Positions 1,473 through 26,145 are shown, numbered from the stretch's first letter. The stretch is 32,000 bases of DNA from Thermococcus kodakarensis KOD1 (GCF_000009965.1 NC_006624.1:360001-392000), one strand, 5' to 3'. Program-made: numbers and translations. The notes: generated by a model from the letters alone, not told the origin.

Positions 1473-1511
1473 CGTTATAACCTCTCCTCCCTATTTTTAT
1501 TGGTGGCTCTC

Positions 1512-3413
1512 ATGATAGTGCGGGGAAAAGTGACAGGAAACGAAATCCCGCGGTTCAAGCACCGGTGGTTCGGCGTTCTTGAGGTTGATGCCGGGGAAAA
1601 GTACAGGCTCTATATGACGGGCAACGCGGCCCAGTGGTTTCTGACTGGGGACGAGGTTGAGATTGAGATTCTGAGCAAGCCAAAGGAGAAGAACGGCTTT
1701 AAGGTTCTCGACTTTGATGACTACCGCCTGTGGAAGTTCTACAACGGTGAAAAGATCCCGGTCTGGCCCCTCTGGGAAAAGGAGCTTGAGGCAAAGCGCT
1801 ACTCTCCGCTGACGGGTGAGCTCCTCTACACATACAAAATCCAGGCGAGGGAGGCCAAATACGAGTCCGACTTCGAGGCGATAGCGGAGCTTGAGCAGTA
1901 CCATTACGCGAGCCAGAAGGAGAAGGTGGCGCTGTGGCGCTGTGAGAACGGCCACATCTTCGAGGCCAACACGAAGGGGGCCTGTCCCGTCTGCGGGAGC
2001 GAGGACGTCCACATACTCGAAATCAAGGGCTCAACTCCGGCCTCGCGCTTCCTGATCCTTGAGCTAGTTGAGAGGGAGGAGTACGAGCCGAGGATTCTCA
2101 GCTACGTCCGCGTTGACCCGCCTATACCCCTGATGCACCGCAGACTGCCGAACGGAGAAATCGAGAAGAACATCCGCGAGAAAGTCTTCCCAGAGGACTG
2201 GTTCCACCCCGCATTCTGGCCGGAGAGGATAATGCGCGAGCTTTACGAGGAGCTGAAGAAGAAGTACAAGAAGAGGGTTGCCCGCTCGTACCTCTGGGAG
2301 GAGGCCAAGTGGAAGGCCCTAAAGGAGACGAACACAGCTGGGGCGAGGATAGCCAGGGTTGTGGTTCACCCCGACTACCGCTCCGACGGCCTCGGTCAGC
2401 TGAGCGTTAAGGCCGCGCTCGAGTGGATAGCCGAGCGCAGAATTCCGGAGATGAGGAAGAGAAAGCACATAGTAGAGACCATAGCCCAGATGGCCCGCTA
2501 CAACCCGTTCTTCGAGAAGGTGGGCTTCAAGTTCCTCTGGGAGACTGCAAGCGGGAGGCCCGTTCTCTTCTACCCTCTGACCGAGGAGGCGAAGGAGTAC
2601 ATAGAGCGCTTCCTTAAGGAGGATCCGTACGCCCCAAAGGACGGAAGGCTCTGGCGCCCGAGCTACGGAAAGGTCGAGCCTCTCAGCGGGCCGATAGTAT
2701 TCAAGGATGTGAGCAAGGTCTTCGAAAGCGAGCTCGACGTGAAGGGCCTTCCGGATGAGATAAGGGAACTCCTGGAGGCGTTCGGCGTCAGGCACCGCGT
2801 CATCCAGAGGCCCGTCCTTAGGAACCTCAACTTCGAGATAAAACCCGGCGAGCTCATAGCGGTCGTGGGTGCGAGCGGAGCTGGGAAGACCACCCTCCTG
2901 AGGCTAATTTTGGGGGCGGCCAACGGCTGGTGGGAGGAGCGCTTCAGGCCGACGACTGGAGAGATAGAAGTTCCCAAGAACGTTAAGGTCTCCGTTATGA
3001 TACCCGGCGAGTTCGAGCCGAGCTTTGGGACTGAGAGCATACTTGAGCACGTTTACAGGAAGATAGGCGACCTTAACGCGGCAGTTGAAGTTCTCAACAG
3101 GGCTGGACTGAGTGACGCAGTCCTTTACAGGGCAAAGTACTCGGAGCTCAGCACGGGTCAGAAGGAGAGGGCCAGGATAGCCTCGCTCCTCGCTGAGAAA
3201 CCAAATCTGCTCCTCATAGACGAGTTCGCGGCACACCTTGACACTCTAACGGCCATGAGGGTCGCCAGAAAGGTTGCCGAGATAATCCGCGAGGCAGGGA
3301 TTACCGCGCTCATAATAACCCACCGGCCGGAGGTCCTAAAGGCCCTTGATCCGGACAGGGTGCTCTTCGTCGGCTACGGAACCGCGAGGGTTCAAGGTAA
3401 AGAAAAGAGTTAG
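1512..3413 (+). CDS. Soluble fusion protein: N-terminal domain with CxxxxH...CxxC zinc ribbon, GNAT acetyltransferase domain, and a single ABC-type ATPase domain
   Basis: GNAT motif A: VVVHPDYRSDGLGQLSV (R-x-x-G-x-G); motif B-like: NPFFEKVGFKF. Zn ribbon: WRCENGHIFEANTKGACPVCGSED. ABC Walker A GASGAGKTT, signature LSTGQKERARIA, Walker B LLLIDEF. The ORF track starts at TTG 1500; ATG 1512 lies just downstream of the TATA-like CTATTTTTATTG, so the start is uncertain. Confidence 0.8.
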   Translation: MIVRGKVTGNEIPRFKHRWFGVLEVDAGEKYRLYMTGNAAQWFLTGDEVEIEILSKPKEKNGFKVLDFDDYRLWKFYNGEKIPVWPLWEKELEAKRYSPLTGELLYTYKIQAREAKYESDFEAIAELEQYHYASQKEKVALWRCENGHIFEANTKGACPVCGSEDVHILEIKGSTPASRFLILELVEREEYEPRILSYVRVDPPIPLMHRRLPNGEIEKNIREKVFPEDWFHPAFWPERIMRELYEELKKKYKKRVARSYLWEEAKWKALKETNTAGARIARVVVHPDYRSDGLGQLSVKAALEWIAERRIPEMRKRKHIVETIAQMARYNPFFEKVGFKFLWETASGRPVLFYPLTEEAKEYIERFLKEDPYAPKDGRLWRPSYGKVEPLSGPIVFKDVSKVFESELDVKGLPDEIRELLEAFGVRHRVIQRPVLRNLNFEIKPGELIAVVGASGAGKTTLLRLILGAANGWWEERFRPTTGEIEVPKNVKVSVMIPGEFEPSFGTESILEHVYRKIGDLNAAVEVLNRAGLSDAVLYRAKYSELSTGQKERARIASLLAEKPNLLLIDEFAAHLDTLTAMRVARKVAEIIREAGITALIITHRPEVLKALDPDRVLFVGYGTARVQGKEKS

Positions 3414-3425
3414 TTCCAAGGTGTT

Positions 3426-5372
3426 TCAAAGCTTAATTTTGGCTATATTTTTTATATCTTCAACGAATTCACCAAGATCCACAAGGTTCCAGCCATTTTC
3501 CCACACGAGAACTTTGAACTTTATCGGGACTTCCCCAAACAGCTTATGCCATATCTTCTGGCGTAATTTGATTTTATGGTGGTGTATGAGTGCGGACACC
3601 GGTCTAAGGACTATCCAGAGTTCATTTTCAGGAAGTTGCAACTTTCCACTGACTACGTACTTTTCAACGGTGTGGTCAATTTTCTTTAAGGGATTCTCTG
3701 TTCCGATCAGAGTCTCGATTTCAATCACTGAGTGGTCTGCCCATTGAATATCAGGAATTATGCCTGTTTCTAGAGGTTCTTCTATCTTGACAATTTGGTT
3801 TGAGATAAGTTCAATAGCCTTGTCTAGTATCTCCGACTCTGCGTACTCTTCGATCTCCTGAGAAAGAATATAAGAGAGAACTGCACACTTCAGCTTATAG
3901 TGGGTTCCCTCCGAGGAAGTTTTTGGCACCAGTGGAGAGAACACTTTGGTGGTCTCGATTAAATACTCGTCCATCTTTTCCTCAGCTTTTAGGAAATCTT
4001 CGTCCCGAATTCCAGTTACCCCATAAACAAGTGCCCTATATCTCGGCAAAATCTCTGAGCTTTCCGTTTCTGGAAGGATTATCGTATGCATTATCCCTCT
4101 AAAGCTGGACATTACATCTTCCAAGTTCTCCACACTAAGCCTATCAGTTATCGTTACTAAAAAGCCGAGACCTGTTAAATAACTGGTCTGGAGCCTGCCT
4201 GCAACTTTGTATATGAACGTCTTGAGCTTATTAAGTGAAACTCCTCTTGAGTCAATGACCTCTATCTTTGATGCGGGTGAAAAGGATGTCATTAGATAAA
4301 CATCCTTAGTGGAATCAACTCTCTCAATACCGTCCATGTATTCCTTGAGGGTTCTATATGTCGGTCTAGGTCTTTCTCCCTTATACTCGAGGTATATCTC
4401 CGAAAGAATGCGCAGGAGTGGCCATTGCCACTCTCCTAGTTCTTGACCGAGTAGAATGAAAACGGGTTTGTCAGTGATTTCGTCTGCCCCATGGGGGAAT
4501 TTTCCCCTCACTCCAAGCAGGGTATCTAAAACGTTGCTCATCTTTCGTACCTCCCACTCAACGAATCCGGAGATATCTGCCAAGTAGGGATTTATTTCAA
4601 AATTCAAATCCAGCTGTAAGGGGGCAATAGCGTTTCTTTTTAGGTCAATGAGCTGTATTGACCTTTGATCATAATAAGGCAAAGAGACTTTGAATTCAGC
4701 TTTTGGAAAAGTCTCGGATTTTAAGGGGAACTCCATTCTACCAACATTTGAGCTCTTGGACACTCTCAAAGAGACTTTAAGCTCCTTTGGAACCTCTGTA
4801 TTGGATAGAGGAATCTCTGTAATTGTCCTAACTTGATGTTGAGTAAATTCGAGGGACAGGGAAAGACTATGTGAGACCATATCGGCGGGGACTCCACGTC
4901 CAAACGGGGGTGGATTAGAGTGTTTGCTGGGAATTTTTGAATGAACAGTGATTCTAAGCTCCTGTGGGGGCGAAAGGGTAAACCTAAAAGAAGGTTCTTC
5001 CCCGGTTTCGGATGTTCTAATGTCTATACTTAAATCTCGTGGAAAGTTCTCTTCTTGGAAGAGTAGAGAAATCTCGTGTGGAGCCGTTACAGGATTTACA
5101 TCGCTTTCCAGTGAAATACCCTCCATTGCTGAATAAGGAGAGATCAGTTTAATCTCGCTAAACTTTCTCTCAGAAGTTTTTCTCTTTGGAGAAATTGGTG
5201 TTCTGGCAATTTGTTCCTCATTTTTTGACGTTTTGCGGGTATCCATTGAGCGAGGAACATTCCCACTAGAGCTTGGTTGTTTTATAGTGCTTGGAATTTT
5301 CTTGACTTTGAGTTTTTCATCTTCCTCAGGGGCCTCTTGGATCAGCGGCTTTTTCTTTTGAATTCTCCTCAT
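3426..5372 (-). CDS. Hypothetical protein (about 648 aa), second gene of an AT-rich two-gene operon; charged/S-P-K-rich N-terminal third, no recognisable catalytic motifs
   Basis: Long uninterrupted ORF. The likely start is ATG 5372, preceded by AGGTGGGAAT and lying 8 nt after the TAG stop of the upstream gene. The ORF track extends to 5405. I could find no Walker, helicase, nuclease or TM motif. Confidence 0.6.
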   Translation of the reverse strand: MRRIQKKKPLIQEAPEEDEKLKVKKIPSTIKQPSSSGNVPRSMDTRKTSKNEEQIARTPISPKRKTSERKFSEIKLISPYSAMEGISLESDVNPVTAPHEISLLFQEENFPRDLSIDIRTSETGEEPSFRFTLSPPQELRITVHSKIPSKHSNPPPFGRGVPADMVSHSLSLSLEFTQHQVRTITEIPLSNTEVPKELKVSLRVSKSSNVGRMEFPLKSETFPKAEFKVSLPYYDQRSIQLIDLKRNAIAPLQLDLNFEINPYLADISGFVEWEVRKMSNVLDTLLGVRGKFPHGADEITDKPVFILLGQELGEWQWPLLRILSEIYLEYKGERPRPTYRTLKEYMDGIERVDSTKDVYLMTSFSPASKIEVIDSRGVSLNKLKTFIYKVAGRLQTSYLTGLGFLVTITDRLSVENLEDVMSSFRGIMHTIILPETESSEILPRYRALVYGVTGIRDEDFLKAEEKMDEYLIETTKVFSPLVPKTSSEGTHYKLKCAVLSYILSQEIEEYAESEILDKAIELISNQIVKIEEPLETGIIPDIQWADHSVIEIETLIGTENPLKKIDHTVEKYVVSGKLQLPENELWIVLRPVSALIHHHKIKLRQKIWHKLFGEVPIKFKVLVWENGWNLVDLGEFVEDIKNIAKIKL

Positions 5373-5380
5373 ATTCCCAC

Positions 5381-6619
5381 CTAAAGAAGCCCTTTGATGA
5401 CCCAAGACCCACCATCGTAATAAAACTGCTTTCCATACCTGCTTTCGGTTCTGTTGACCTTTATCTTGAGATATCTCTTCTCTAAAGGAGTCCCCGACTC
5501 ATTGCCCACCCAATTGGGTGTCCTGATGTACCCCGCGGAGATGAGGGGGAATATCTCCTCGATGAACCTTGAGAGAGGAATAGTGGCTGTATAGGTCTTA
5601 TAACCAGCATTGTCCACAAGTACAAATGAAGTGCCTGAAGTGGGGACTAAACTGTATTCATCACCATTTTGAATGTATCTTAATATCCCCCTGGTATCTT
5701 CCGATATGTCCCAACCTTCCAAGTTATACGTCCTTGTTACAAAGTTGTACTTGTCCTTCCACCACTCTTTAAAGGCGCTCCTTACATCTCTTGAGAGCCT
5801 TGAAAGAATCGCAGAGACATCTCCAAACTCCCCAAAGAGAGCGTTTATTAAGGCTGGAATGCTCGGTGGGGAAGGGTTAAAATGACTTAGCCAGAAGAAA
5901 TCATCCACATCTTCTTCACTGGCCTTCTCAAGATCAACCTTTTCGAGCTTTGAGTTGTAAATGTACCCAATGCGCCATAACGAGGAGAGTTCTCTTAGGC
6001 TGTGGATGTCTCCATTGAGTATCTCCTCAATGTGTAACAAGGGAGCGGTGTCAAGATAGTACGAAATTGCGGAGTATGGGTTAAACATGGGCAGCAGAGC
6101 GCATCCGGTTCTTAGAAGATGATTGAATTTCTCCACAAGCTTCGGCTCATCTGGAGAGACCCATGAGAGAAACTCTTCCTTGGGAATCTCTGGTACTTGG
6201 CCCCCGAGACTGAGAATAAGATCCTTAAGCTGGTTTAGGATTTGTTCAAAGTTATCATGCGAGGTACCCAGTACTAGATCACCAACGACGAACGCCACTC
6301 TATCACCTCTTCTTTTGTAGAGGGTTAGTGTATCATCATAGTCGTTCGCCCCAAGGGCGCGAACCCCGAACAAAGAATACATAAATCTTCCTATGGCATT
6401 TGGAGAGTCTTCTCCACCTATTAGAAGCATTCTTGCGGAATTCTTTAGGTGATCATCAAGAAAGGCTATTCTTTTTCCATGAAGTTCAGTTTTCGTCCAC
6501 TTCCAGAAGTTCTCGAACTGATAAAGAGCCACATAGAGCTCAGAAAGCTGGTTGGTGTATTCTCCCCAGTTCTTTCTGTTCCATAGTGCTTTTTCACGAG
6601 CCCACGATGTTAAATCCAT
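5381..6619 (-). CDS. Hypothetical protein (about 412 aa), first gene of an AT-rich two-gene operon
   Basis: Long ORF. ATG at 6619 is preceded by GGTGAGGATT. The ORF-track GTG 6628 sits inside that RBS. A/T-rich TATA-like elements lie at about 6637-6664 upstream. No recognisable domain. Confidence 0.6.
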   Translation of the reverse strand: MDLTSWAREKALWNRKNWGEYTNQLSELYVALYQFENFWKWTKTELHGKRIAFLDDHLKNSARMLLIGGEDSPNAIGRFMYSLFGVRALGANDYDDTLTLYKRRGDRVAFVVGDLVLGTSHDNFEQILNQLKDLILSLGGQVPEIPKEEFLSWVSPDEPKLVEKFNHLLRTGCALLPMFNPYSAISYYLDTAPLLHIEEILNGDIHSLRELSSLWRIGYIYNSKLEKVDLEKASEEDVDDFFWLSHFNPSPPSIPALINALFGEFGDVSAILSRLSRDVRSAFKEWWKDKYNFVTRTYNLEGWDISEDTRGILRYIQNGDEYSLVPTSGTSFVLVDNAGYKTYTATIPLSRFIEEIFPLISAGYIRTPNWVGNESGTPLEKRYLKIKVNRTESRYGKQFYYDGGSWVIKGLL

Positions 6620-6704
6620 AATCCTCACCGTTTATAATTTTGCTTAGGAGTGTTATAAAGCTTTGTTGTGGAGAGTCGCTCGTCAAACTATATTCTGTTG
6701 GGAT

Positions 6705-7292
6705 TTAGAGCGCGCAGAGCACGTCGAAGAAAGCCGAACCGAGCCAGTGAAGGAGGAAGCTTGGGACGAAGCTCTCTCCTTTTAAGTCCATTTTTGCAAA
6801 GACTATCCCGGCTATGAAAGCGTAGGGAACTTCTATTCCGGGCTTTCCGATGTGGACTATTGTATAGGGGATGTCCTGAAGGATTACGGCCAGCCACTCG
6901 TTCTTTTTTGCCAGAGGGAAAAGAAGAAAGCCTCGATAAAAAGCCTCGTGGGCCAGCATTGTAATCCCCATGGCAAGCTCACCCAGAACGAAGTCAAAGG
7001 CGCTTGAATACGGAAAAACCGGATAGTAAGACCTCATCTCGGGGATGCTTCTCCCGTAGATGCTCAGTGGAATTGAAGCCAGAAAGAGAACGGCAAAGAG
7101 CTTTAGACCAGTCCTGTTTGGTAGGCTTATGCCGACTTCTCCCCACTGGAAGCCCATAAGTCTTGAGACTACCGCCGGAATTAGGAGGTAAAAGAGGCCG
7201 ACTATGGCAACGTGGTCCCAGAAAGAGGTATGAATAAGCCATGGGACGAAGCTAAGGGGCAGTAAAAGTATGAAGAGCAAAACTTCCCTCAA
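6705..7292 (-). CDS. CPBP-family (CAAX protease/Abi-like) intramembrane metalloprotease
   Basis: The protein is hydrophobic and multi-spanning. It carries AHEAFYRGFL (EExxxR-like motif 1), YTIVHIGK (FxxxH-like) and LLHWLGSAFFD (HxxxN/D-like). The TTG start lies 3 nt after the TGA of the upstream gene. Confidence 0.6.
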   Translation of the reverse strand: MREVLLFILLLPLSFVPWLIHTSFWDHVAIVGLFYLLIPAVVSRLMGFQWGEVGISLPNRTGLKLFAVLFLASIPLSIYGRSIPEMRSYYPVFPYSSAFDFVLGELAMGITMLAHEAFYRGFLLFPLAKKNEWLAVILQDIPYTIVHIGKPGIEVPYAFIAGIVFAKMDLKGESFVPSFLLHWLGSAFFDVLCAL

Positions 7293-7295
7293 GGC

Positions 7296-8198
7296 TCACA
7301 CCATGAAGCTTATGTGCGCCGTTCTGACGTACCTTCCAATCTGAATGCCGCGGTTTGTGAACGCTATCTCTATCTCAAGCGGCCGGTGGGGGTTTCCCCT
7401 TCTGACAACCCTGATTCCGACAAAATCACCAAGTCTGTCCTTGTTGAGTCTGTTCACGTGGGAGTATAGAAGCCTGAGGAAATTGCGGTAGTCCTGCATC
7501 TCCTCGAAGAACTCCCTCTGCTCGGGGTTCAGATTGGGATAGACGTATTTGTGGAAGAACCAGTCGAAGGAGCCATACGTGCTCGTTGCATACGTGAAGA
7601 GAACCTTGTAAAACTCGATGTTCTTGTTCCCAAAGGCCGAGTCCATGTATTCAACGGCCTTTCCAAGGTAGCTAGCAGCCTCGCTGAGCTTCATTCTGAT
7701 AAGCCCGAGCTCAATGTCGTTGCCTCTAAGGGTTACGAGTATATACCTGCCGCCGCCGTAGTCCAGATAGACGGAGCTGTAAAACAGGACGAGCTTTCTC
7801 GGCCTAACGCTCATGTACTGGGCTATTCTCCTGAGGGCGTCCCCCATTCTGTTCAGGGTTCTCGGGTCGCCGATAAGCACGGCATCAACCCCGAGAAGGC
7901 TTTCGTGGACGGCTATATCGTTGTCCAGCCAGAACTCCACGACCCTCTTCCAGCCGGGCATGTTGTAGCGGTTGAGGATCTTCAGCTCAAGCAGGGAAAC
8001 CGGGACTTCCTTGACTACCCGCCCAAAGCGCTTTTTGAACACGACAACAGGATGGTAGCCGCTCGAGGGATTTAGATACGAAACGGGGAGCTCCATCACT
8101 TGTCTGAGAGCGAGTACGGCGTCGCGTATCTTAGGCACGTCATCTTTCGTGAACCTTCCGCCGAGGTCTTCAAGGAGAACGTCAAAGCGAGACTTCAT
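7296..8198 (-). CDS. Conserved-looking hypothetical protein (about 300 aa)
   Basis: Long ORF in native-like GC. ATG 8198 (MKSRFDVLLEDLGG...) is preceded by GGGGAGAGGTT and by a TTTTTATTATA box at 8213-8224 (minus strand). The ORF-track start at 8246 would overlap the FKBP gene. Confidence 0.6.
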   Translation of the reverse strand: MKSRFDVLLEDLGGRFTKDDVPKIRDAVLALRQVMELPVSYLNPSSGYHPVVVFKKRFGRVVKEVPVSLLELKILNRYNMPGWKRVVEFWLDNDIAVHESLLGVDAVLIGDPRTLNRMGDALRRIAQYMSVRPRKLVLFYSSVYLDYGGGRYILVTLRGNDIELGLIRMKLSEAASYLGKAVEYMDSAFGNKNIEFYKVLFTYATSTYGSFDWFFHKYVYPNLNPEQREFFEEMQDYRNFLRLLYSHVNRLNKDRLGDFVGIRVVRRGNPHRPLEIEIAFTNRGIQIGRYVRTAHISFMV

Positions 8199-8242
8199 AA
8201 CCTCTCCCCACAGTATAATAAAAAGAACGGGGGTTAAAAACC

Positions 8243-9295
8243 TCACTCAGAGGCCTCGGCGTTTTCAGCCTCGGCTTCACCATTCTCTTCGGCTGCTTTG
8301 GCTTTCTTCTTGGTTGTGCTCTTCTTCCTTGTGGTTCTCCTAGTCTTCCTGCTCTTGGTGCTCTTCTTGGGCTTTTTCTCCTCAGTCTCTTCAGCCTTTT
8401 CTGAGGCCTCCTCAGCTTCCGACTCCTCCGCACTCTCCTCGGTCTCCCCTTTCTCCTCGCTCTCTTCCTCAGGGGCCTCCTTGATTGCTTCCTGTTCAGC
8501 TGCCTTTTCGGTTTCAGTTTCCTCAGGAGCTTCGGTTGTCTCACTGGCCTCCTCCTCAGAGGCCTCGCCCTCCTCGGCTTCCGGCGGCTTGAGAAGCTCG
8601 TCAACGCTGGGCCTGAACTTGACTTCCTCGTAACCAAGGAACTTGAGGTCGCCCTCGAGGAGGAGCTCGCCGAGAACGAGGGTGCCCTTGTCAACCTCCT
8701 CCCTAACCGGGGTGAAGTCAACGACGACGTCCTTCTCGCCGACCTCTATGACGACCTTGTTCGCGTCAAGCCTGGGCAGGCGAAGCTCGATGAGGGCCTT
8801 AACCTTCTCAATCGGGTCGTCAATCTTCTCAACGACCTCGACCTCGTAAACGAGGTGCTTGCCTGCGTAGGGGTGGTTGAAGTCAACCCTGACACGGCCT
8901 CCGCTAACGGTGAGAACCCTGCCCCTGAGTTTCCTGCCACCCTCGGTCTCTATCTCGACGGGCATCCCAGGGAAGGGTATGAGCCCCTGCCTCCTGAACT
9001 GGCCGAGGGTGAAGGTCTTGATGAGCTTGGGATCGCGCTTTCCGAAGCCCTTCTCGGGTGGAACCTCGATCTCGTACTTCTTTCCGACTTCAAGACCCTC
9101 AAGCTGCTCGTCAAGGCCCTGAATCACGTGACCAGCACCGACGGCTATCGGGACGGGCCCGTAAACGCCGTTCTCCTTGTAGATTCCAGCCTGCTTCGCG
9201 ATCTCTTCATCGGTTGTGTCGAATATCTCACCGGTCTCCTTTATCCTTCCGGTGTACTTGAGCCTGATAACGTCACCCTTCTGAACCTTGGTCAT
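8243..9295 (-). CDS. Long-type archaeal FKBP peptidyl-prolyl cis-trans isomerase with a low-complexity acidic-then-basic C-terminal tail of about 114 aa
   Basis: The N-terminus VIRLKYTGRIKETGEIFDTT...GAGHVIQGLDEQLEGLEVGKKYEIEVPPEKGFGKRDP is typical of SlyD/FKBP with an insert-in-flap domain. ATG 9295 is preceded by AGGAGGT. The tail is 8243-8587. Confidence 0.85.
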   Translation of the reverse strand: MTKVQKGDVIRLKYTGRIKETGEIFDTTDEEIAKQAGIYKENGVYGPVPIAVGAGHVIQGLDEQLEGLEVGKKYEIEVPPEKGFGKRDPKLIKTFTLGQFRRQGLIPFPGMPVEIETEGGRKLRGRVLTVSGGRVRVDFNHPYAGKHLVYEVEVVEKIDDPIEKVKALIELRLPRLDANKVVIEVGEKDVVVDFTPVREEVDKGTLVLGELLLEGDLKFLGYEEVKFRPSVDELLKPPEAEEGEASEEEASETTEAPEETETEKAAEQEAIKEAPEEESEEKGETEESAEESEAEEASEKAEETEEKKPKKSTKSRKTRRTTRKKSTTKKKAKAAEENGEAEAENAEASE

Positions 9296-9463: not shown

Positions 9464-10369
9464 ATGAAATTCGGATTATGGTATATCAAGTGGGATAGTT
9501 CGACTGGCAAGTACATCTCAAGGATACGAACACTAAGCAAGAATCCTGCAACAGTTTATGATTTTAAAGAGAGATTCGATATTGCAATCTTTACAACTCG
9601 AGAGGGACTAGATGCAAATTACAGCGGTAATGGATATAGGGATGGAAAAGAGCTTGCAAGTTTCACAAAGTTAATGGCCAAAAGGGAGATAGAATATTAC
9701 GTTTCAATACCATATTACATGCCCTCAAAGGATATTCTACTGGGAAGAGGGAATATTCAGACTGGGGATTATTGGCTTAGTTGGGTTGATGGGGTTCTAT
9801 CAGTGGAAGAAGATAACCTTTTGGGGTTTTACTGGGATCTAGAATATGCATGGATGTTCAAAGATTACTGGAAGGGGAAACAGAACTCAGTGATAAATCC
9901 AGAGGCACTTTTGAGAATAGCCGAAAAAATTCACGATCACGGATTAAAATTCATCTGGATACCATCAGCACATACATACGCGTTAAGCAATACTGACATT
10001 TGGTCACCTCAATCTCTTGACGCCTTTGATCTCATTTTCGTGCAACCAAATTACTATATGAACAATTCAGGAAGGTATCCTTTCTCATTTTACGAATTTA
10101 AAGAGTGGTTAAGGACTTTAAAAAATATGAGTTCCTCTAAAGTACACATGGTGATGGAAGCCGATGAATGTATATTAACAAAGGGCAATGGAAATTGTAG
10201 GACCTGCGGCAATCATGAGCAATGTCTTAAACTTGCCAGTGATTATTACCTCGTTCAAAGAGAAGTTCTTCGTAGACTGGACACCAATTTAGCATACTAT
10301 TTCGGGATAACTCTAGATGTAGTTGATATCGTATTTGATTACTATCTAAAAAGAATGGGGGTGCTATAG
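9464..10369 (+). CDS. Hypothetical cytoplasmic protein (301 aa) with a C-terminal Cys cluster
   Basis: Long ORF in an AT-rich island with no signal peptide. Aromatic-rich strand-like motifs: GFYWDLEY, FIWIPSAH, VQPNYY, MEADE. Cys cluster: C-x10-CxxC-x5-C (ADECILTKGNGNCRTCGNHEQC). A glycosidase-like TIM-barrel is only a guess. Confidence 0.55.
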   Translation: MKFGLWYIKWDSSTGKYISRIRTLSKNPATVYDFKERFDIAIFTTREGLDANYSGNGYRDGKELASFTKLMAKREIEYYVSIPYYMPSKDILLGRGNIQTGDYWLSWVDGVLSVEEDNLLGFYWDLEYAWMFKDYWKGKQNSVINPEALLRIAEKIHDHGLKFIWIPSAHTYALSNTDIWSPQSLDAFDLIFVQPNYYMNNSGRYPFSFYEFKEWLRTLKNMSSSKVHMVMEADECILTKGNGNCRTCGNHEQCLKLASDYYLVQREVLRRLDTNLAYYFGITLDVVDIVFDYYLKRMGVL

Positions 10370-10372
10370 GCA

Positions 10373-11455
10373 GTGAAAAGTTATCCCAGAAATACTCACT
10401 CAAATTTTATTGAATTGATGCTAGTGCTTTCTTTGTTTTTCCTGATTTTTATCCCTTCCTCAAAGGCAGACCCCACTCTAACCATTAGTTTCTGCTCCTC
10501 GGGCTTCAGAATAATCATAATGCCCACCAGTGAAGGTTTCATCTACGTATCAACTGGATACTACGGATTAAAACCCCACTCATTGGGACAGTGCACCGTT
10601 GAGTATGACCCGACAACCCAGTACGACAGGTTCTACCTCGTGAACTCGAGCGGAGCCCACTACATCGGCGGCTACTACGAGTACGAAGGCCAAAACGAGA
10701 GCCTCACCAAAATCCTGAATTCGATCTCAGAACGGAAGACGACCAACCCAGTGCGAGGGAAGGTAGAAGGGGACAGTGTGGTGTTCCAATTTAAAAATCG
10801 GACTTACGCTATAAAAATAAGAGAGATAGCTCCGTATCTGTGGGATGAGAAGGAGCTAAGCAACCTGATCGCGTTCTCCCGCGGAAACGACATCGTCATA
10901 GTTCCAGCCATTGAGATGGACGTGATAGAGAACAATTTTACCCTGAACGCAGTTCCAGGGGAAAAAACAGGGACGACTCGGATTGAGCTCAATTTCACCT
11001 ATAAGCTCTACCTGGGGTATCCCTTCCTTCTAAATGGCTCCACTACAGGTATTATCGAATGGGCAAACACCTCAATGGACTATGACCAGATACCCTGGGA
11101 GAAGCTCAAGGATATGTTTGAGAAACCCCTCTACGTCTTTTACTTCAATGAGACATCAATAATTCCGCTACCCATTCTGAAAGTGACGCCAGACATGGTG
11201 CTAAAAGACTTCGAGCTTTCTCCAGAGTACGGTTTTGAGAACCTGGCGGACGTCTACATCCTCAAAGATAAAGCATCCTCAACGAGCCCGACGTTCAACG
11301 TCTCCGAGGGCACACATTCCTCACTGACGGCATCGTCCATGGTCTCCAAAGGATCGCAATTCAATGAGAACACTGAGCTCTTAAAAGAGTTCTTCCTGGT
11401 TGCGCTCATAGTTAGTATGGCGGTTATGGCACTCCACCGACACCTGCGGCGATAA
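10373..11455 (+). CDS. Secreted/membrane-anchored surface protein, probable N-glycoprotein
   Basis: GTG start lies 3 nt after the upstream stop, preceded by GGGGGTG. N-terminal signal/anchor: LMLVLSLFFLIFIPSSKA|DP. Nine N-x-S/T sequons (NSS, NES, NRT, NFT, NFT, NGS, NTS, NET, NVS). C-terminal TM helix FFLVALIVSMAVMAL followed by HRHLRR. Confidence 0.65.
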   Translation: MKSYPRNTHSNFIELMLVLSLFFLIFIPSSKADPTLTISFCSSGFRIIIMPTSEGFIYVSTGYYGLKPHSLGQCTVEYDPTTQYDRFYLVNSSGAHYIGGYYEYEGQNESLTKILNSISERKTTNPVRGKVEGDSVVFQFKNRTYAIKIREIAPYLWDEKELSNLIAFSRGNDIVIVPAIEMDVIENNFTLNAVPGEKTGTTRIELNFTYKLYLGYPFLLNGSTTGIIEWANTSMDYDQIPWEKLKDMFEKPLYVFYFNETSIIPLPILKVTPDMVLKDFELSPEYGFENLADVYILKDKASSTSPTFNVSEGTHSSLTASSMVSKGSQFNENTELLKEFFLVALIVSMAVMALHRHLRR

Positions 11456-12960: not shown

Positions 12961-14072
12961 ATTTTGAATTTTTCTCAGAGTTTTTATTGCAACTGTGCGG
13001 GATGCATTCAGGGAAGCCGTGGCCATGACGTACTTTCAATTCTCTTAGAGTCTTATTGCAACGGGCGCTCCGTGACGTCACCGAGGCACCTAACACCTAA
13101 TTTCAATTCTCCTAGAGTCTTATTGCAACACGGCACCACCCCTGCAAACACCACCAGCCAAAGCACGGATTTCAATTCTCCTAGAGTCTTATTGCAACTT
13201 TTCCGAAGTTCACTCCTGAGGCCGAGAGGAGGATTGATTTCAATTCTCCTAGAGTCTTATTGCAACACATAGATATAGAGAAGCCCGCAGACATCAAGAA
13301 GGCGATTTCAATTCTCCTAGAGTCTTATTGCAACGTGATGGAGGTGAAAGCCGATGTCTGATGTCCAGATTCATTTCAATTCTCCTAGAGTCTTATTGCA
13401 ACGAATGGCGATGAAGAGCAGGCGAAGATTGACGCTCAAAATTTCAATTCTCCTAGAGTCTTATTGCAACTATCCTCCTCACCGCTGGCCTCTGCGCCGT
13501 ACCCTTATTTCAATTCTCCTAGAGTCTTATTGCAACCAAAGAACCCGAACCCTACCACCCTCGCGGAATTGATTTCAATTCTCCTAGAGTCTTATTGCAA
13601 CTTTCGCGGAGTATTTGCCTTAAATCCTCCTTGATAATATTTCAATTCTCCTAGAGTCTTATTGCAACTTTCACGTTACCTCACTCAGAAAGCCCTCGCA
13701 AACTCGTTTCAATTCTCCTAGAGTCTTATTGCAACAGAAAGCACCAGTATGAGATAGCTCCAATGAAAAACCTGTTTCAATTCTCCTAGAGTCTTATTGC
13801 AACTCGTTGAACCCGTTAAAAGCCATCTCCCCATCTTCGTGTTTCAATTCTCCTAGAGTCTTATTGCAACTTCTCGACATGAAAAGGGAGATGGGCAGAG
13901 TCATTGAGTTTCAATTCTCCTAGAGTCTTATTGCAACTTGAGTTTGAAGAGCTTTACCTTTTTCTTTGCGTGGACGTTTCAATTCTCCTAGAGTCTTATT
14001 GCAACTACCCGAAGCAGAACATGAAACATTTATCGCCTTAACGTTTCAATTCTCCTAGAGTCTTATTGCAAC
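12961..14072 (-). CRISPR. CRISPR array: 17 repeats (30 nt; the low-coordinate terminal copy is degenerate) and 16 spacers of 35-39 nt
   Basis: Plus-strand repeat: (G/A)TTTCAATTCTCCTAGAGTCTTATTGCAAC. Repeat starts: 13033, 13100, 13169, 13237, 13305, 13373, 13441, 13507, 13572, 13639, 13706, 13774, 13841, 13908, 13976, 14043. A degenerate copy with indels sits at about 12961-12993. The reverse complement GTTGCAATAAGACTCTAGGAGAATTGAAAC resembles the P. furiosus repeat GTTCCAATAAGACTAAAATAGAATTGAAAG (from memory), whose 3' ATTGAAAG forms the crRNA 5' tag. Together with the degenerate repeat at the low end and the AT-rich non-coding region at the high end, this argues for minus-strand transcription. 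Confidence 0.97.
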
Positions 14073-14120
14073 AGGGCGGTTTTTTCCTCCTTTCTCCCTA
14101 CAAACTACTAAGAACGCTCG

Positions 14121-14136
14121 GATCTTATAAGCTTTT
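14121..14136 (-). promoter_or_regulatory. Candidate pre-crRNA promoter (BRE/TATA-like)
   Basis: The minus strand reads AAAAGCTTATAAGATC, centred about 56 nt upstream of the first repeat (14072). The core CTTATAAG is palindromic, so orientation is not proven. Confidence 0.35.
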
Positions 14137-14152
14137 CCGCAAAGGGTGCTCT

Positions 14153-14177
14153 AAAAAGCCCCTAACGGTCCCCAATT
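14153..14177. repeat. Leader box 1, copy 1 (AAAAAGCCCCTAACGGTCCCCAATT)
   Basis: 20 of 25 positions are identical to 14352-14376 (AAAAAGGCCCTAAAGTGCCCCCATT), at an offset of 199 nt. Confidence 0.7.
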
Positions 14178-14351
14178 AAAAAGCTTTTGAGCGGTTTTTT
14201 TCAGCCAGAAACAAGTTCTCCTCCTTCCGTTAAGAGCATGCACAACAACGTTCAGAAGACTTCCCAGGCATCTTTAGAGTCTTAAAAAGAACTTTAGTGG
14301 TTTTCAGACGCTTTTTGCCAAAAATATCGTGTCAGAATTAGGAACGGGCAC

Positions 14352-14376
14352 AAAAAGGCCCTAAAGTGCCCCCATT
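14352..14376. repeat. Leader box 1, copy 2
   Basis: See 14153-14177. A second box pair, AACGTTCAGAAGACTTCCCAGGC (14247-14269) and AACGTTACTAAAGACTTCCCGAGGC (14443-14467), keeps the same offset of about 196-198 nt. Confidence 0.7.
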
Positions 14377-14546
14377 CAGAATTCCGAAAAAATTTCGTCA
14401 CGATTTTTGCTGAATATATAACTTTTCGTTTGATAGTAACCAAACGTTACTAAAGACTTCCCGAGGCTGATCAGCAAATATTTTGAAAATTCAATGGCTA
14501 ATACACCTCAGTTCAGACAACTGGACGATTTAAACGTGATAGGACC

Positions 14547-14560
14547 GAAAATATAAAAGG
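14547..14560 (+). promoter_or_regulatory. cas2 promoter (BRE/TATA-like GAAAATATAAAAGG)
   Basis: A strong A/T box about 35 nt upstream of the cas2 ATG at 14589. Confidence 0.5.
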
Positions 14561-14588
14561 AACTAACCGGAGTTTGTACGGTGGTGGC

Positions 14589-14846
14589 ATGTACATCATA
14601 GTGGTCTACGACGTCTCGGTCGAGCGCGTGAACAGAGTCAAGAAGTTTCTCCGCCAGCACCTTCACTGGGTCCAGAACAGCGTTTTTGAAGGCGAGGTTA
14701 CTCTAGCAGAGTTTGAGCGCATAAAAGCCGGAATAGGAGAACTCATAGACGGGGATGAGGATTCGGTTGTCATATACAAACTTCGCTCGATGCCAAAAAG
14801 AGAAGTAATGGGAGTGGAGAAGAACCCGATTGAGGACATTATCTAG
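14589..14846 (+). CDS. cas2: Cas2 (CRISPR adaptation protein)
   Basis: MYIIVVYDVSVERVNRVKKFLRQHLHWVQNSVFEGEV... is a canonical Cas2 N-terminus and ferredoxin-fold pattern. ATG 14589 is preceded by GGTGGTGG; the ORF track starts at TTG 14574. Confidence 0.93.
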   Translation: MYIIVVYDVSVERVNRVKKFLRQHLHWVQNSVFEGEVTLAEFERIKAGIGELIDGDEDSVVIYKLRSMPKREVMGVEKNPIEDII

Positions 14847-15540
14847 ACTTCTCCCATGGCCTATCTATCGCGGCGCATATGGGTCTGAATGGACAGTGGT
14901 TGCAAACCCACGTCTTGTTGCCGACGGTGGATATCCACTTTGGGAACTCCCCCCTCTCCAAGTCCTCAACTGCCTCTATAACTTTCTCCGCCCTCTTGAT
15001 GAATCTCCTGAAGAGTCTTTCGTTAAAGGTCACCTCAAAGACCCTGAAGTCAAGCCCGTTCCTGTCGAAAATGTAAATGTACCCTTTTTCCTTCCCGAGG
15101 ATGCCCATGTATGCGTTTATCTGCTCAATCGATTCTTTGGACGGCTCGGCGTGATCTAAGTCGATGTTTTTCTTTGATTTTTTCGAATTCTTCTTCGAAT
15201 CGTTGTTCTCGAAACCCCTGAACTTAAACTCCAGGAGGTAATCGCCTTTCACGGCATCGACCTTTCCAACGAGCTTCCAGCCGTCTTTGAGGTCGTGCTC
15301 AACGGGAATCTCGAACTCCGCGCCCCTAACGACTTCCCCGAGCCAGCCGTGGAGGGCAGTACCTATCCTAGCCTCCCAGCTTCTGGAGGGATTGTACGTG
15401 TTGAGGTATATCGAGAGCGCCGTCTTCCTAAGGCAGTGGCTCAGCGAGGTCACCCATATCTTCCTCTCCACTATAGGGCTTCCACTCACGGCGCGGCGGA
15501 TTCCCTCGTTGAACTCCTCTATTTCTGCAGGGAGGGACAT
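14839..15540 (-). CDS. cas4: Cas4-family RecB-like nuclease (paralog 1; last gene of the type I-A operon)
   Basis: N-terminal Cys (SLSHCLRK) plus C-terminal CNHCPFRPIC give a four-Cys cluster. D...ExK motif: VDAVKGDYLLEFK. QxxxY-like: QINAY. The ATG immediately follows the cas6 TAA (TAAATG). Confidence 0.85.
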   Translation of the reverse strand: MSLPAEIEEFNEGIRRAVSGSPIVERKIWVTSLSHCLRKTALSIYLNTYNPSRSWEARIGTALHGWLGEVVRGAEFEIPVEHDLKDGWKLVGKVDAVKGDYLLEFKFRGFENNDSKKNSKKSKKNIDLDHAEPSKESIEQINAYMGILGKEKGYIYIFDRNGLDFRVFEVTFNERLFRRFIKRAEKVIEAVEDLERGEFPKWISTVGNKTWVCNHCPFRPICAAIDRPWEKSR

Positions 15541-21106: not shown

Positions 21107-21116
21107 GGGAACCACC

Positions 21117-22315: not shown

Positions 22316-22316
<1 letters not shown>
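21117..22316 (-). CDS. cas7: Cas7 of type I-A (Csa2), unusually long, with a charged internal segment
   Basis: The N-terminus FLSVGVRFEANVEALNMVETAGNYGKHRRVP is the hallmark Csa2 start. ATG 22316 overlaps the csa5 TGA, and GGAGGTG lies 8 nt upstream. Confidence 0.88.
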
Positions 22317-22719
<403 letters not shown>

Positions 22720-22744
22720 ACGTTTAGTTAGTGTTTAGCTAGGA

Positions 22745-22766
22745 TTAAAAAGATGTTTAGAAAAAG
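22745..22766 (-). terminator. Possible cas1 terminator (two T5 runs on the minus strand)
   Basis: Plus-strand A5 runs at 22747-22751 and 22761-22765 lie about 90-110 nt downstream of the cas1 stop and upstream of the csa5 promoter. Confidence 0.3.
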
Positions 22767-22855
22767 TCAAACACAGATCCCTCTCCTACAGGGTGATATA
22801 TCTACCATTTTGCGGGCGGCATCTAACTATGTCTGTTTAAAGATTATCAATCACC

Positions 22856-24492
<1,637 letters not shown>

Positions 24493-24500
24493 TTAGTAAG

Positions 24501-24530: not shown

Positions 24531-24533
24531 TAC

Positions 24534-26145
<1,612 letters not shown>

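What the first reader, a model, noticed from the sequence alone, without database searches (positions are those of the whole stretch)
3426..6704. AT-rich two-gene operon with no recognisable domains: candidate horizontally acquired system of unknown function
What the sequence shows:
- Two long minus-strand ORFs of about 412 aa and about 648 aa are separated by only 8 nt (TAG, then GTGGGAAT, then ATG). Each has a GGTG-type RBS.
- The block is visibly much more AT-rich than its flanks. For example, the 60-nt line at 3421 has 18 G+C, against 41 in the line at 2341.
- I could find no Walker, helicase, nuclease, HTH, TM or signal-peptide motif in either protein.
- The second protein has a highly charged, S/P/K-rich N-terminal third. 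This is followed by beta-strand-like alternating segments (KVSLRVSKSS, EFKVSLPYYDQ, LQLDLNFEINPY) and a large C-terminal globular part.

Inference: the compositional contrast, the tight coupling and the location about 6 kb from a CRISPR-cas island make this a reasonable candidate for an uncharacterised accessory or defence module. The function is entirely open.
Basis: partly seen in the sequence, partly recalled or inferred. Interest (0 to 1): 0.68.

Follow-up and report, generated by a model that had tools for sequence, protein, structure and literature searches.

The report
Undescribed archaeal accessory gene pair
Two "orphan-looking" genes of Thermococcus kodakarensis (TK0438 and TK0437) belong to a rare, patchily distributed archaeal gene module that nobody seems to have described. 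Its larger protein probably ends in a DNA-cutting domain, and the host can be genetically manipulated, so the module's role (probably genome defence) can be tested directly.

Summary
There are two minus-strand genes of 412 aa (5381-6619) and 648 aa (3426-5372), separated by 8 nt. Their GC is 43%, against 53-57% in the flanks.

The window is T. kodakarensis KOD1. The genes are TK0438 (A) and TK0437 (B), and both are transcribed in published dRNA-seq data.

They are not orphans:
- An exhaustive HMMER search and a motif-based metagenome scan found B homologues in at least 71 lineages. Those with a source name are Thermococcales, Archaeoglobus, Thermoplasmata and Asgard archaea.
- An A homologue lies directly upstream in 57 of 65 loci that have room for one.
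- A classic AAA ATPase follows B in 15 lineages.
- A proteasome-beta-like peptidase (6 lineages), a short A-like protein (13 lineages) or a HEPN-like protein (2 lineages) join in others.

The pair sits at different chromosomal sites in different Thermococcales. It is AT-richer than its host in 10 of 13 loci and is under purifying selection (dN/dS 0.06-0.29).

B's C-terminal domain has invariant K, E, D and E-x-E residues arranged like a PD-(D/E)XK nuclease site of the BamHI type. No Pfam, PADLOC or PDB profile confirms this, and the structure models failed.

Best reading: a new nuclease-based conflict or defence module, seen here in its minimal two-gene form. The function remains inferred.

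The parts
5381..6619 (-). Gene A (TK0438), 412 aa. A mostly helical protein with no known domain. It is the founding member here of a family found directly upstream of B homologues.
   Evidence: ORF and start codon. Homologues upstream of B in T. barophilus (29% identity, E 7e-58) and Pyrococcus sp. ST04 (E 2e-38). 81 genes in 54 lineages, 70 of them at position -1 on the same strand. dN/dS 0.11 against L001. No Pfam or PDB hit even with a 37-sequence profile. Transcribed, DESeq baseMean 81.
3426..5372 (-). Gene B (TK0437), 648 aa. The core protein of the module.
   Evidence: ORF. About 50 representative homologues in the exhaustive phmmer search. 116 genes in 71 lineages in the fetched loci. 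Transcribed, baseMean 186, comparable to cysS at 129.
4578..5372 (-). B residues 1-265. A fast-evolving, low-complexity N-terminal region: a charged, S/P/T-rich head followed by short beta-strand-like segments.
   Evidence: Not alignable across the family. It is 136-614 residues long in homologues. 69% identity and dN/dS 0.29 against L001, compared with 94% and 0.06 for the next domain. Composition. The beta strands appear only in a low-confidence AF2 model.
3939..4577 (-). B residues 266-478. A conserved alpha/beta (Rossmann-like) middle domain of unknown function.
   Evidence: Nearly invariant P303, E325, P335, R393, G403 and G454 over 62 lineages. The PDB profile search gives only generic designed alpha/beta proteins, E >= 0.03. 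Foldseek hits of the poor model to G domains are not significant.
3429..3938 (-). B residues 479-648. C-terminal domain with an invariant charged constellation (K495, E531, D541, E551-x-E553, K564, K571/Y572). Inferred to be a PD-(D/E)XK-type nuclease domain. The candidate catalytic codons lie between 3714 and 3890.
   Evidence: Alignments A3, A5 and A9. K495 and D541 are 62/62 and E531 is 60/62 in lineages selected by a pattern that did not include them. Weak single-member Pfam hits to three families that I recall (not tested here) as PD-(D/E)XK folds: DpnII 0.007, XisH 0.03, L_protein_N 0.049. No significant Pfam or PDB profile match.
5373..5380 (-). The 8-nt A-B spacer, which carries the GGTGGG ribosome-binding motif for B.
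   Evidence: In homologous loci the A stop and B start overlap or lie within about 20 nt in most cases.
5573..5603 (-). Published primary transcription start site for TK0437 (window 5573), inside gene A, with a TATA-like TTATAAG at 5603-5597 (about -27).
   Evidence: Jager et al. 2014, Table S2 (PMC4247193). Sequence read.
6623..6659 (-). Upstream region of A: TATA-like TTTATAA (6659-6653), a second A/T box (6638-6631) and RBS GGTGAGG (6629-6623).
   Evidence: Read directly from the sequence. Promoter function is inferred only. The dRNA-seq table lists no primary TSS here.
6705..7292 (-). TK0439, an Rce1-like (CPBP) membrane protease gene directly upstream of A. Possibly associated, but uncertain.
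   Evidence: Pfam PF02517, E 5e-10. The same arrangement occurs in the sister contig L001. An unrelated Rce1-like gene follows the AAA gene in L012. It is absent from all other loci. Its GC is intermediate (49.7%).

Best explanation
TK0438-TK0437 is the minimal two-gene form of a previously undescribed, horizontally mobile archaeal module. Its most likely role is genome conflict: defence against viruses or plasmids, or a related addiction-type function.

Shown:
- The A-B pair is an evolutionarily conserved unit.
- It is patchily distributed and sits at different chromosomal sites.
- It is AT-richer than most hosts, is under purifying selection, and is expressed in T. kodakarensis.
- In other lineages the same core is extended by a classic AAA ATPase, a proteasome-beta-like peptidase, a short A-like paralogue or a HEPN-like protein.

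Inferred:
- B is the effector. Its C-terminal domain is a metal-dependent PD-(D/E)XK-type endonuclease with a BamHI-like E...D...ExE site plus invariant lysines.
- The conserved alpha/beta middle domain mediates assembly or regulation.
- The fast-evolving N-terminal tail is a specificity or regulatory handle. In the three-gene versions it is a plausible substrate for the AAA unfoldase.
- A is a helical partner that binds and restrains or targets B. It is made first, and its stop is close to or overlaps B's start in most loci.

Proposed working cycle: the A:B complex is inert. A trigger removes or remodels A or B's tail, either through the dedicated AAA ATPase or peptidase or, in Thermococcales, through host Cdc48/PAN-proteasome. 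That releases the nuclease activity.
For: Family and linkage:
- Exhaustive phmmer found about 50 representative B homologues over residues ~260-648.
- A motif scan gave 99 true B loci out of 120 metagenome hits.
- In total there are 116 B genes in 71 lineages. A is directly upstream in 57 of 65 loci, and an AAA ATPase directly downstream in 27 of 63 (37 genes in 15 lineages, always at +1 on the same strand).

Accessory genes:
- A proteasome-like peptidase (PF00227, E 7e-5 and 1.2e-4; invariant T/D/K) occurs in 6 lineages.
- A DUF4145/HEPN-like protein occurs in 2 lineages.
- A short A-like paralogue (hhalign probability 93.7%) occurs in 13 lineages.

Mobility:
- The pair occupies three different sites in Thermococcales.
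- Its GC is below the rest of the locus in 10 of 13 loci.
- In the window it is 43.3% GC against 53-57% in the flanks.

Functionality:
- dN/dS is 0.11 for A, 0.29 for B's N-terminal region and 0.06 for B's middle domain.
- Both genes are transcribed.

Active-site-like constellation:
- K495, D541, E551, E553, P561 and K564 are invariant, and E531 is 60/62.
- The only weak Pfam echoes include DpnII, XisH and the bunyaviral L endonuclease, which I recall (not tested here) as PD-(D/E)XK folds.

Conflict-type neighbours:
- Type I R-M plus PIN/toxin-antitoxin genes in T. barophilus.
- McrBC-like genes in L010.
- Mrr in L014, L135 and L156.
- CRISPR-Cas 6.6 kb away here.
Against: - No profile method links B to any nuclease family. 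Pfam was run on all members, PADLOC and PDB searches used 28-58-sequence profiles, and hhalign was run against single Mrr, Cas4 and NucS sequences. All were negative.
- Both AlphaFold models are unusable (pLDDT 36-39), so the fold is unverified.
- E551, E553, P561 and K564 were part of the pattern used to fish the metagenome loci. Their invariance there is partly ascertainment, though they are also near-invariant in the unbiased set.
- About half of the well-sampled contexts are housekeeping or DNA-repair neighbourhoods: Lhr, XPB-Bax1, Mre11-Rad50, TtuA, aIF5B.
- No defence-island enrichment statistic was computed.
- The family was not found on phage, plasmid or IMG/VR records.
- The link to an AAA ATPase and a proteasome-like peptidase could equally indicate a protein-processing role.
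Confidence: 0.45

Rival explanations
1. An accessory DNA-repair or recombination nuclease complex. In this reading B is a structure-specific nuclease and A its regulatory subunit. They act on the host chromosome, for example on stalled forks or breaks, rather than on invaders.
For: The pair lies directly after the Lhr helicase gene in L006. It lies about 1.4 kb from XPB-Bax1 in T. barophilus and about 2.4 kb downstream of Mre11-Rad50 in L013. An XPB-like gene is at +1 in L091. Expression in T. kodakarensis is constitutive and at the level of housekeeping genes.
Against: The distribution is patchy: only a handful of Thermococcales carry it. The chromosomal position varies, the GC is low relative to the host, and B's N-terminal region evolves fast. 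These features are unusual for core repair factors. The repair neighbours differ from locus to locus and are not conserved partners.
Confidence: 0.15
2. A protein-remodelling or proteolysis-linked module. In this reading A and B are adaptors or substrates of an AAA unfoldase and a proteasome-like peptidase. B's invariant residues form a non-nuclease site, and the Thermococcales pair is a remnant that uses the host Cdc48/PAN and 20S proteasome.
For: A classic-clade AAA ATPase (PF00004, with AAA_lid_3) is strictly adjacent to B in 15 lineages. A proteasome-beta-like peptidase lies beside the module in 6 lineages, and Rce1-like proteases in 2. B has a long disordered tail of the kind AAA unfoldases engage. 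No nuclease homology is detectable.
Against: Most lineages (about 50 of 71) have neither the ATPase nor the peptidase next to the pair. The K...E...PD...ExE...K pattern on alternating strand-like segments is typical of PD-(D/E)XK sites. A HEPN-like protein and R-M, Mrr and McrBC neighbours point to nucleic-acid conflict.
Confidence: 0.15
3. Cargo or maintenance genes of a degraded integrated mobile element (virus- or plasmid-derived, like the TKV regions). In this reading they serve the element, for example in replication, partition or addiction, rather than the host.
For: Low GC and a patchy distribution. Many homologues lie on short metagenome contigs that are binned inconsistently. A TnpB/IS605 gene lies 8 kb away in Pyrococcus sp. 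ST04. A second AT-rich two-gene insertion lies 3 kb away in the window.
Against: There is no integrase, tRNA, att-like flanking repeat or other element gene around the pair. tblastn found no homologue in 50,697 phage or 72,556 plasmid records. None was found in IMG/VR with peptide or motif patterns. None of the fetched contigs shows terminal overlap indicating a circle. The pair is stably inherited with its flanks in the sister lineage L001.
Confidence: 0.1
4. Spurious or decaying ORFs with no function.
For: No domain hits. Only one close homologue of A appeared in the word-indexed search of 5.8 billion proteins.
Against: A and B are conserved together across 54-71 lineages at 15-47% identity. 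dN/dS is 0.06-0.29. Residues are invariant. Both genes are transcribed.
Confidence: 0.01

Closest known systems
McrBC-type and related ATPase-plus-PD-(D/E)XK nuclease restriction modules (McrB AAA+ GTPase with McrC nuclease; CoCoNuT-like variants). Comparison from general knowledge.
   Same: In the extended versions a nuclease-like subunit with a long N-terminal part is encoded next to a ring-forming AAA-type ATPase. The distribution is patchy and the genes sit at accessory sites. The likely logic is an ATPase-controlled endonuclease.
   Different: The ATPase here is a classic-clade AAA (PF00004 plus AAA_lid_3), not the McrB AAA_5 GTPase. It follows the nuclease gene rather than preceding it. 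The window's version has no ATPase at all. An additional obligatory partner A has no counterpart. B has no detectable similarity to McrC/PDDEXK_7.
BamHI-type active-site variant of the PD-(D/E)XK superfamily (E77, D94, E111, E113; recalled from the literature, not tested here).
   Same: An acidic residue on an upstream element, a D at the start of one strand-like segment and E-x-E on the next (B: E531, D541, E551-x-E553). Invariant lysines lie nearby (K495, K564).
   Different: There is no sequence or profile similarity to BamHI or any other restriction enzyme. The spacing is shorter (10 + 10 residues). The domain is the C-terminal third of a 648-aa multidomain protein.
IetAS and TRIP13-containing defence systems (AAA ATPase components in PADLOC).
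   Same: The AAA ATPases next to B homologues score best against IetA (E 1e-28 to 1e-33) and TRIP13 (E 1e-17 to 1e-21) models. A protease partner, as in IetS, has a parallel in the proteasome-like or Rce1-like genes of some loci.
   Different: The hits cover only the generic AAA core. There is no S8 protease, HORMA or CD-NTase gene. A and B have no PADLOC hits. The T. kodakarensis locus lacks the ATPase.
Type II toxin-antitoxin modules.
   Same: Two co-directional genes whose stop and start are close or overlapping, with the putative inhibitor first and the putative nuclease second. The pair is mobile, patchy and AT-rich.
   Different: The proteins are several times larger (412 and 648 aa). 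A has no recognisable DNA-binding domain. TK0437 has its own TSS inside TK0438. No known toxin or antitoxin family matches.

Membership tests
PD-(D/E)XK (restriction-endonuclease-like) nuclease superfamily, for B residues 479-648 | Catalytic motif: an acidic residue at the start of a core strand, followed by (D/E)-x-K or an accepted variant (such as ExE) on the next strand, with a conserved lysine. | tested here: met
   D541 (in IPDI), E551-x-E553 (in IEIET) and K495 are invariant, and E531 is 60/62, across 28-62 diverse members. This is motif level only.
PD-(D/E)XK (restriction-endonuclease-like) nuclease superfamily, for B residues 479-648 | The alpha-beta-beta-beta-alpha-beta core fold. | tested here: inconclusive
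   The AF2 model has pLDDT 35.8. Its secondary structure after residue 549 (strand, helix, strand, helix, strands) is compatible, but the model is unreliable. Foldseek gave no significant match.
PD-(D/E)XK (restriction-endonuclease-like) nuclease superfamily, for B residues 479-648 | Significant sequence or profile similarity to an established member family. | tested here: not met
   Pfam on every member gave nothing above noise: single-member hits to DpnII 0.007, XisH 0.03 and L_protein_N 0.049. PDB profile searches were negative. hhalign against Mrr, Cas4 and NucS-like sequences was negative.
PD-(D/E)XK (restriction-endonuclease-like) nuclease superfamily, for B residues 479-648 | Divalent-metal-dependent nuclease activity. 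| not testable with these tools
   Requires biochemistry.
Known anti-phage defence systems (PADLOC-DB v2.0.0) | Component proteins match the system's HMMs. | tested here: not met
   There were no significant hits for A or B from the window or from four other loci; the only match was a noise-level one (Csm5, E 0.02) for one A homologue. Only the neighbouring AAA ATPases hit the generic AAA models of IetA and TRIP13.
Defence-island gene (guilt by association) | Statistical enrichment near known defence genes across independent genomes. | tested here: inconclusive
   R-M, toxin-antitoxin, McrBC-like, Mrr or CRISPR-Cas genes lie within 10 kb in about 4-6 of 10 annotated contexts. The other contexts are housekeeping. 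No background model was computed.
Integrated mobile element (TKV-like provirus or integrated plasmid) | An integrase, att or tRNA target, and element-type genes flanking the cargo. | tested here: not met
   No tRNA in the window. No flanking repeats. The neighbours are ThiDN, a GNAT-ABC fusion, an Rce1-like gene, FKBP and CysRS. No phage, plasmid or IMG/VR homologues.
Type II toxin-antitoxin module | A small antitoxin with a DNA-binding fold upstream of a small toxin from a known family. | tested here: not met
   The gene order and the close or overlapping stop-start arrangement fit. However, the proteins are 412 and 648 aa and match no toxin-antitoxin family.
McrBC-like restriction | A McrB-type AAA_5 GTPase partner and a McrC/PDDEXK_7 nuclease. 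| tested here: not met
   The associated ATPase is PF00004, not AAA_5 as its best family. It is absent from the window. B has no PDDEXK_7 or DUF2357 hit.

The most novel reading that the evidence does not exclude
A-B is the core of a new class of archaeal immune or conflict system. In it a latent nuclease (B) is held in check by a dedicated helical partner (A). It is switched on by ATP-dependent unfolding or proteasome-type proteolysis, either of A or of B's hypervariable N-terminal tail. Dedicated AAA and proteasome-beta-like genes do this in Asgard, Thermoplasmata and other lineages, and the host Cdc48/PAN-20S machinery is co-opted in Thermococcales. That would be a proteasome-gated nuclease defence with no bacterial counterpart described so far.
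Probability: 0.15. Interest if true: 0.85.

Novelty: new variant of a known kind. Interest (0 to 1): 0.62.

Why it matters
[quoted passage not shown] This analysis turns two "hypothetical proteins" of a genetically tractable model hyperthermophile into the entry point for a module that is absent from Pfam and PADLOC. The module is spread over at least 71 lineages, including Asgard archaea.

Its accessory genes are unusual: a classic AAA ATPase, a proteasome-beta-like peptidase and a HEPN-like protein. Together they suggest a regulated nuclease, possibly gated by unfolding or proteolysis.

T. kodakarensis expresses both genes and has markerless deletion tools and shuttle plasmids. Function, toxicity and the predicted catalytic residues can therefore be tested directly. 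If the defence reading fails, the same experiments would show whether the pair is instead a repair or proteostasis factor.

Tried and rejected
- Single-sequence or near-single-sequence AlphaFold2 for A and B gave pLDDT 38.7 and 35.8, which is unusable.
- Foldseek of the poor B model gave only weak G-domain hits (E >= 0.02, TM <= 0.15). I treat these as meaningless.
- The word-indexed homology searches returned almost nothing: 2, 1 and 3 proteins. The third search was swamped by low-complexity words from B's N-terminal regions.
- Two genome-contig scans with window-specific peptides found no relatives, and two of the viral-contig scans likewise. These scans are uninformative for distant homologues.
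I replaced it with a degenerate DNA motif search.
- tblastn against phages and plasmids found no match.
- PDB sequence and profile searches for A, B, B-middle, B-C-terminal and the peptidase family found nothing significant.
- hhalign of the B C-terminal profile against single Mrr, Cas4 and NucS-like sequences found nothing.
- The Calx-beta repeat protein P0041 (E 5e-11 through six repeated weak stretches) was rejected as a compositional or repeat artefact.
- A weak SprT-like hit for the 213-aa gene in L010 was not pursued. The recurrent ~215-aa family C has no HExxH motif and is an A-like paralogue instead.
- I considered a Toprim or degenerate P-loop reading of B's middle domain. I dropped it because the candidate acidic residues are not conserved above 85%.
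- Literature searches for the locus tags and for a comparable archaeal system found no prior description.

Full report
**1. Observation**

The window contains two long minus-strand ORFs. Gene A runs from ATG 6619 to TAG 5381 (412 aa). Gene B runs from ATG 5372 to the stop at 3426 (648 aa). The spacer between them is 8 nt, TAG-gtgggaat-ATG, and GGTG-type ribosome-binding motifs precede both starts.

The compositional contrast is real.
- The block 3426-6619 is 43.3% GC, against 56.5% in the left flank and 53.2% in the right flank.
- Only 1 of 289 equal-length sliding windows in the 32-kb window is lower.
- GC3 is 42% (B) and 49% (A), against 65-80% in the neighbouring housekeeping genes.

Pfam, NCBIfam, PHROGs and PADLOC give nothing significant for either protein. 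A CRISPR array begins at 13237, and cas genes (Cas4, Cas6, Csa3, HD, Cas3, Csx9, Cas7, Cas1 and a second Cas3) follow from 14839. The stated distance of about 6 kb is therefore right.

**2. Identity of the locus and expression**

The supplementary tables of Jager et al. 2014 (PMC4247193) list these genes on NC_006624.1:
- TK0437 at 363426..365372 (minus);
- TK0438 at 365381..366619 (minus);
- TK0439 at 366705..367292;
- cysS (TK0444) at 371496..372926.

These are exactly the window coordinates plus 360000. The window is therefore Thermococcus kodakarensis KOD1, with A = TK0438 and B = TK0437.

The neighbours are:
- ThiDN (TK0435);
- a GNAT-ABC ATPase fusion (TK0436), convergent with B;
- an Rce1-like CPBP protease (TK0439) just upstream of A;
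- an unknown protein (TK0440);
- a long FKBP (TK0441);
- two more AT-rich unknowns (TK0442 and TK0443);
- CysRS.

Both genes are transcribed in that dRNA-seq study. DESeq baseMean is 186 for TK0437 and 81 for TK0438, against 129 for cysS and 17 for TK0439.

The TSS table lists a primary TSS for TK0437 at 365573, which is window 5573. This lies inside TK0438, 201 nt upstream of B's ATG. A TATA-like TTATAAG sits at about -27. No primary TSS is listed upstream of TK0438. A TTTATAA box (6659-6653) and an RBS are visible there, but their function is inferred only. The two genes are tightly juxtaposed, yet B also has its own promoter.

**3. The pair is not an orphan**

The word-indexed search found only one close relative of A (85% identity, JGI contig L001) and none of B. 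L001 has the same Rce1-like-A-B arrangement next to FKBP and CysRS.

The exhaustive phmmer search with B changed the picture. About 50 representative proteins (27-47% identity, 550-760 aa) align to B residues ~260-648 but not to the N-terminal part.

Source names, where available, are all "hypothetical protein". They come from Thermococcus barophilus, Pyrococcus sp. ST04, P. kukulkanii, a Thermococci MAG, Archaeoglobus sp., Thermoplasmata, Promethearchaeota and Baldrarchaeia MAGs. A few come from evidently mis-binned short contigs.

In every genomic locus fetched, the gene directly upstream of the B homologue is a homologue of A. Examples are T. barophilus (29% identity, E 7e-58) and Pyrococcus sp. 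ST04 (E 2e-38).

**4. A larger sample**

Of these, 99 encode true B homologues. The same pattern in IMG/VR gave 30 loci, none of them true.

With my own gene calls and HMMs, the counts are as follows.

| Gene family | Genes | Lineages | Position relative to B |
|---|---|---|---|
| B | 116 | 71 (80% identity clusters) | reference |
| A | 81 | 54 | directly upstream, same strand, in 57 of 65 loci with at least 900 nt of upstream sequence |
| Classic AAA ATPase | 37 | 15 | always +1, same strand; present in 27 of 63 loci with room |
| Short A-like protein (~215 aa) | 17 | 13 | -2 or -1 |
| Proteasome-beta-like peptidase (~270 aa) | 8 | 6 | mostly +1 |
| 486-aa HEPN-like protein | 4 | 2 | +2 or +3, after the AAA gene |

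Further details on these families:
- The A stop and B start mostly overlap or lie within about 20 nt.
- The AAA ATPase matches PF00004 plus AAA_lid_3. Its best PADLOC models are IetA and TRIP13, through the generic AAA core.
- The ~215-aa family is homologous to the central part of A (hhalign probability 93.7%, E 2e-7).
- The ~270-aa family matches the proteasome subunit family PF00227 (E 7e-5 and 1.2e-4). Its invariant T, D and K are spaced like Thr1/Asp17/Lys33.
- The 486-aa protein has a DUF4145/HEPN-like C-terminus.

The T. kodakarensis pair is thus the minimal version of a modular system.

**5. Anatomy of B**

B has three parts.

(i) Residues 1-265 form a charged, S/P/T-rich and then beta-strand-like region. 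It cannot be aligned across the family and is 136-614 residues long in homologues. Against L001 it is 69% identical with dN/dS 0.29. The next domain is 94% identical with dN/dS 0.06.

(ii) Residues 266-478 form a conserved alpha/beta domain. P303, E325, P335, R393, G403 and G454 are nearly invariant. Profile searches hit only designed Rossmann-like proteins.

(iii) Residues 479-648 carry the family's invariant charged residues:
- K495, in a Y-x-x-K motif;
- E531;
- D541, in IPDI;
- E551-x-E553, in IEIET;
- P561;
- K564;
- K571/Y572.

K495 and D541 are 62/62 and E531 is 60/62 in lineages fished with a pattern that did not include them. E551, E553, P561 and K564 were part of that pattern, but they are also near-invariant in the unbiased set.

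The order is lysine, acidic residue, PD at the start of a hydrophobic segment, E-x-E on the next segment, then a helix-like GT.EP.KKI..T..KY and a further hydrophobic segment. From general knowledge this is the signature of PD-(D/E)XK nucleases, with the E-x-E variant known from BamHI.

This assignment is an inference.
- Pfam on all members, PDB profiles and hhalign against single nucleases gave no significant match.
- The only echoes are single-member sub-threshold hits to DpnII, XisH and the bunyaviral L endonuclease.
- Both AlphaFold models are unusable, and Foldseek on one of them is not meaningful.

**6. Anatomy of A**

A is a mostly helical protein. W18, G68-G69, G85, N180 (in an NPY motif) and P358 are invariant or nearly so across 37 diverse members. 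It has no Pfam or PDB relative. Its dN/dS against L001 is 0.11.

**7. Evidence that the module is accessory and mobile**

In Thermococcales the pair occupies three unrelated sites:
- between TK0436 and TK0439 in T. kodakarensis and L001;
- between a UPF0175/DUF3368 toxin-antitoxin pair and a type I R-M system with PIN genes in T. barophilus;
- between the TrkA/K-channel genes and TtuA in the two Pyrococcus genomes, with a DUF234 ATPase inserted beside it in P. kukulkanii.

The pair is AT-richer than the rest of its locus in 10 of 13 loci, typically by 5-10 percentage points. No tRNA, integrase or flanking repeats mark the window copy. No homologue was found in phage, plasmid or IMG/VR collections, and no fetched contig looks circular.

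Conflict-type neighbours occur in several contexts: R-M and toxin-antitoxin genes, McrBC-like genes, Mrr, and CRISPR-Cas. Other contexts contain DNA-repair genes (Lhr, XPB-Bax1, Mre11-Rad50) or plain housekeeping genes. I could not compute an enrichment statistic.

**8. Interpretation**

The best-supported reading (confidence about 0.45) is a new nuclease-based conflict or defence module. B is the effector, A is its obligatory partner or regulator, and the optional AAA unfoldase and proteasome-like peptidase control it in the larger versions.

The rivals are:
- an accessory DNA-repair nuclease complex (0.15);
- a protein-remodelling module whose invariant site is not a nuclease (0.15);
- cargo of a degraded mobile element (0.10);
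- non-functional ORFs (0.01, effectively refuted).

The remaining probability covers functions I have not thought of.

**9. Comparison with known systems, and novelty**

The module resembles McrBC-type ATPase-nuclease systems and IetAS in logic, and type II toxin-antitoxin pairs in gene arrangement. It fails the membership tests for all of them: a different ATPase clade or no ATPase, no family matches, and much larger proteins.

Searches of the open literature for the locus tags and for comparable archaeal systems found no description. I rate it a new variant of a known kind (accessory nuclease-centred conflict modules). There is a minority chance that it is categorically new, namely a proteasome- or unfoldase-gated nuclease.

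Its value lies in being expressed in a genetically tractable model archaeon, with clear catalytic-residue predictions to test.

Noticed in passing
window 9464-11455 (+), TK0442/TK0443: A second AT-rich two-gene block lies between the FKBP gene and cysS. GC is 38% and 47%, GC3 37% and 60%. There is no solid Pfam hit; DUF4855 at E 2e-5 is below its cut-off. The block is absent from the syntenic FKBP-CysRS gap of the related contig L001, so it is probably a separate, more recent insertion.
   Followed up: partly
window 7296-8246 (-), TK0440: A 316-aa ORF with no Pfam hit lies between the Rce1-like gene and FKBP. It has host-like GC (52%), is absent from L001, and has its own primary TSS in the published dRNA-seq table.
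   Followed up: no
window 1500-3413 (+), TK0436: An unusual fusion of a GNAT acetyltransferase domain (residues ~280-345) with a C-terminal ABC-type ATPase domain. It is convergent with gene B, with only 12 nt between the two stops.
   Followed up: no
window 13237-28437: A CRISPR array (68-nt period) is followed by two sets of cas genes: Cas4, Cas6, Csa3, HD, Cas3, Csx9, Cas7 and Cas1, then a second HD-Cas3 fusion. An 'archaeal ATPase' (PF01637) gene is embedded at 25036-26145.
   Followed up: partly
window 3341-6682, both strands: The published dRNA-seq table lists several internal and antisense TSS within TK0437 and TK0438. Antisense sites are at window 3341, 3476, 3897 and 5905. Internal sites are at 3936, 4204, 4271 and 6397. 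Their significance is unknown.
   Followed up: no
L014 4591-10902 and L135: A Baldrarchaeia-type locus has the order A - B - AAA - second A paralogue. An Mrr-type restriction endonuclease gene and a NucS-like gene lie nearby.
   Followed up: partly
L118 998-4048 (-): A B homologue of about 1015 aa, with roughly 400 extra N-terminal residues and no Pfam hit. It is preceded by the short A-like family C protein instead of a full-length A.
   Followed up: no
L065 3203-4069, L119 1664-2470, L110 6975-7793, L109 1602-2459, L061 135-692: A divergent proteasome-beta/HslV-like peptidase family of about 270 aa, with invariant T/D/K and a C-terminal helical extension. It is encoded beside A-B(-AAA) in six lineages. 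It barely reaches the Pfam PF00227 threshold and has no significant PDB sequence match.
   Followed up: partly
L073 903-2363 (-), L047 1558-3018 (-), L054 5617-7077 (+): A 486-aa protein with a DUF4145/HEPN-like C-terminus follows the AAA gene in two lineages. It is split into two ORFs in L054.
   Followed up: no
Proteins P0017, P0077-P0079, P0069: Near-identical B homologues on 3-7 kb contigs are deposited in bins named Minisyncoccia bacterium, Thermoplasmata archaeon and Latescibacterota. One is annotated 'ssRNA-specific RNase YbeY' by its source. Both the binning and that name look unreliable.
   Followed up: no
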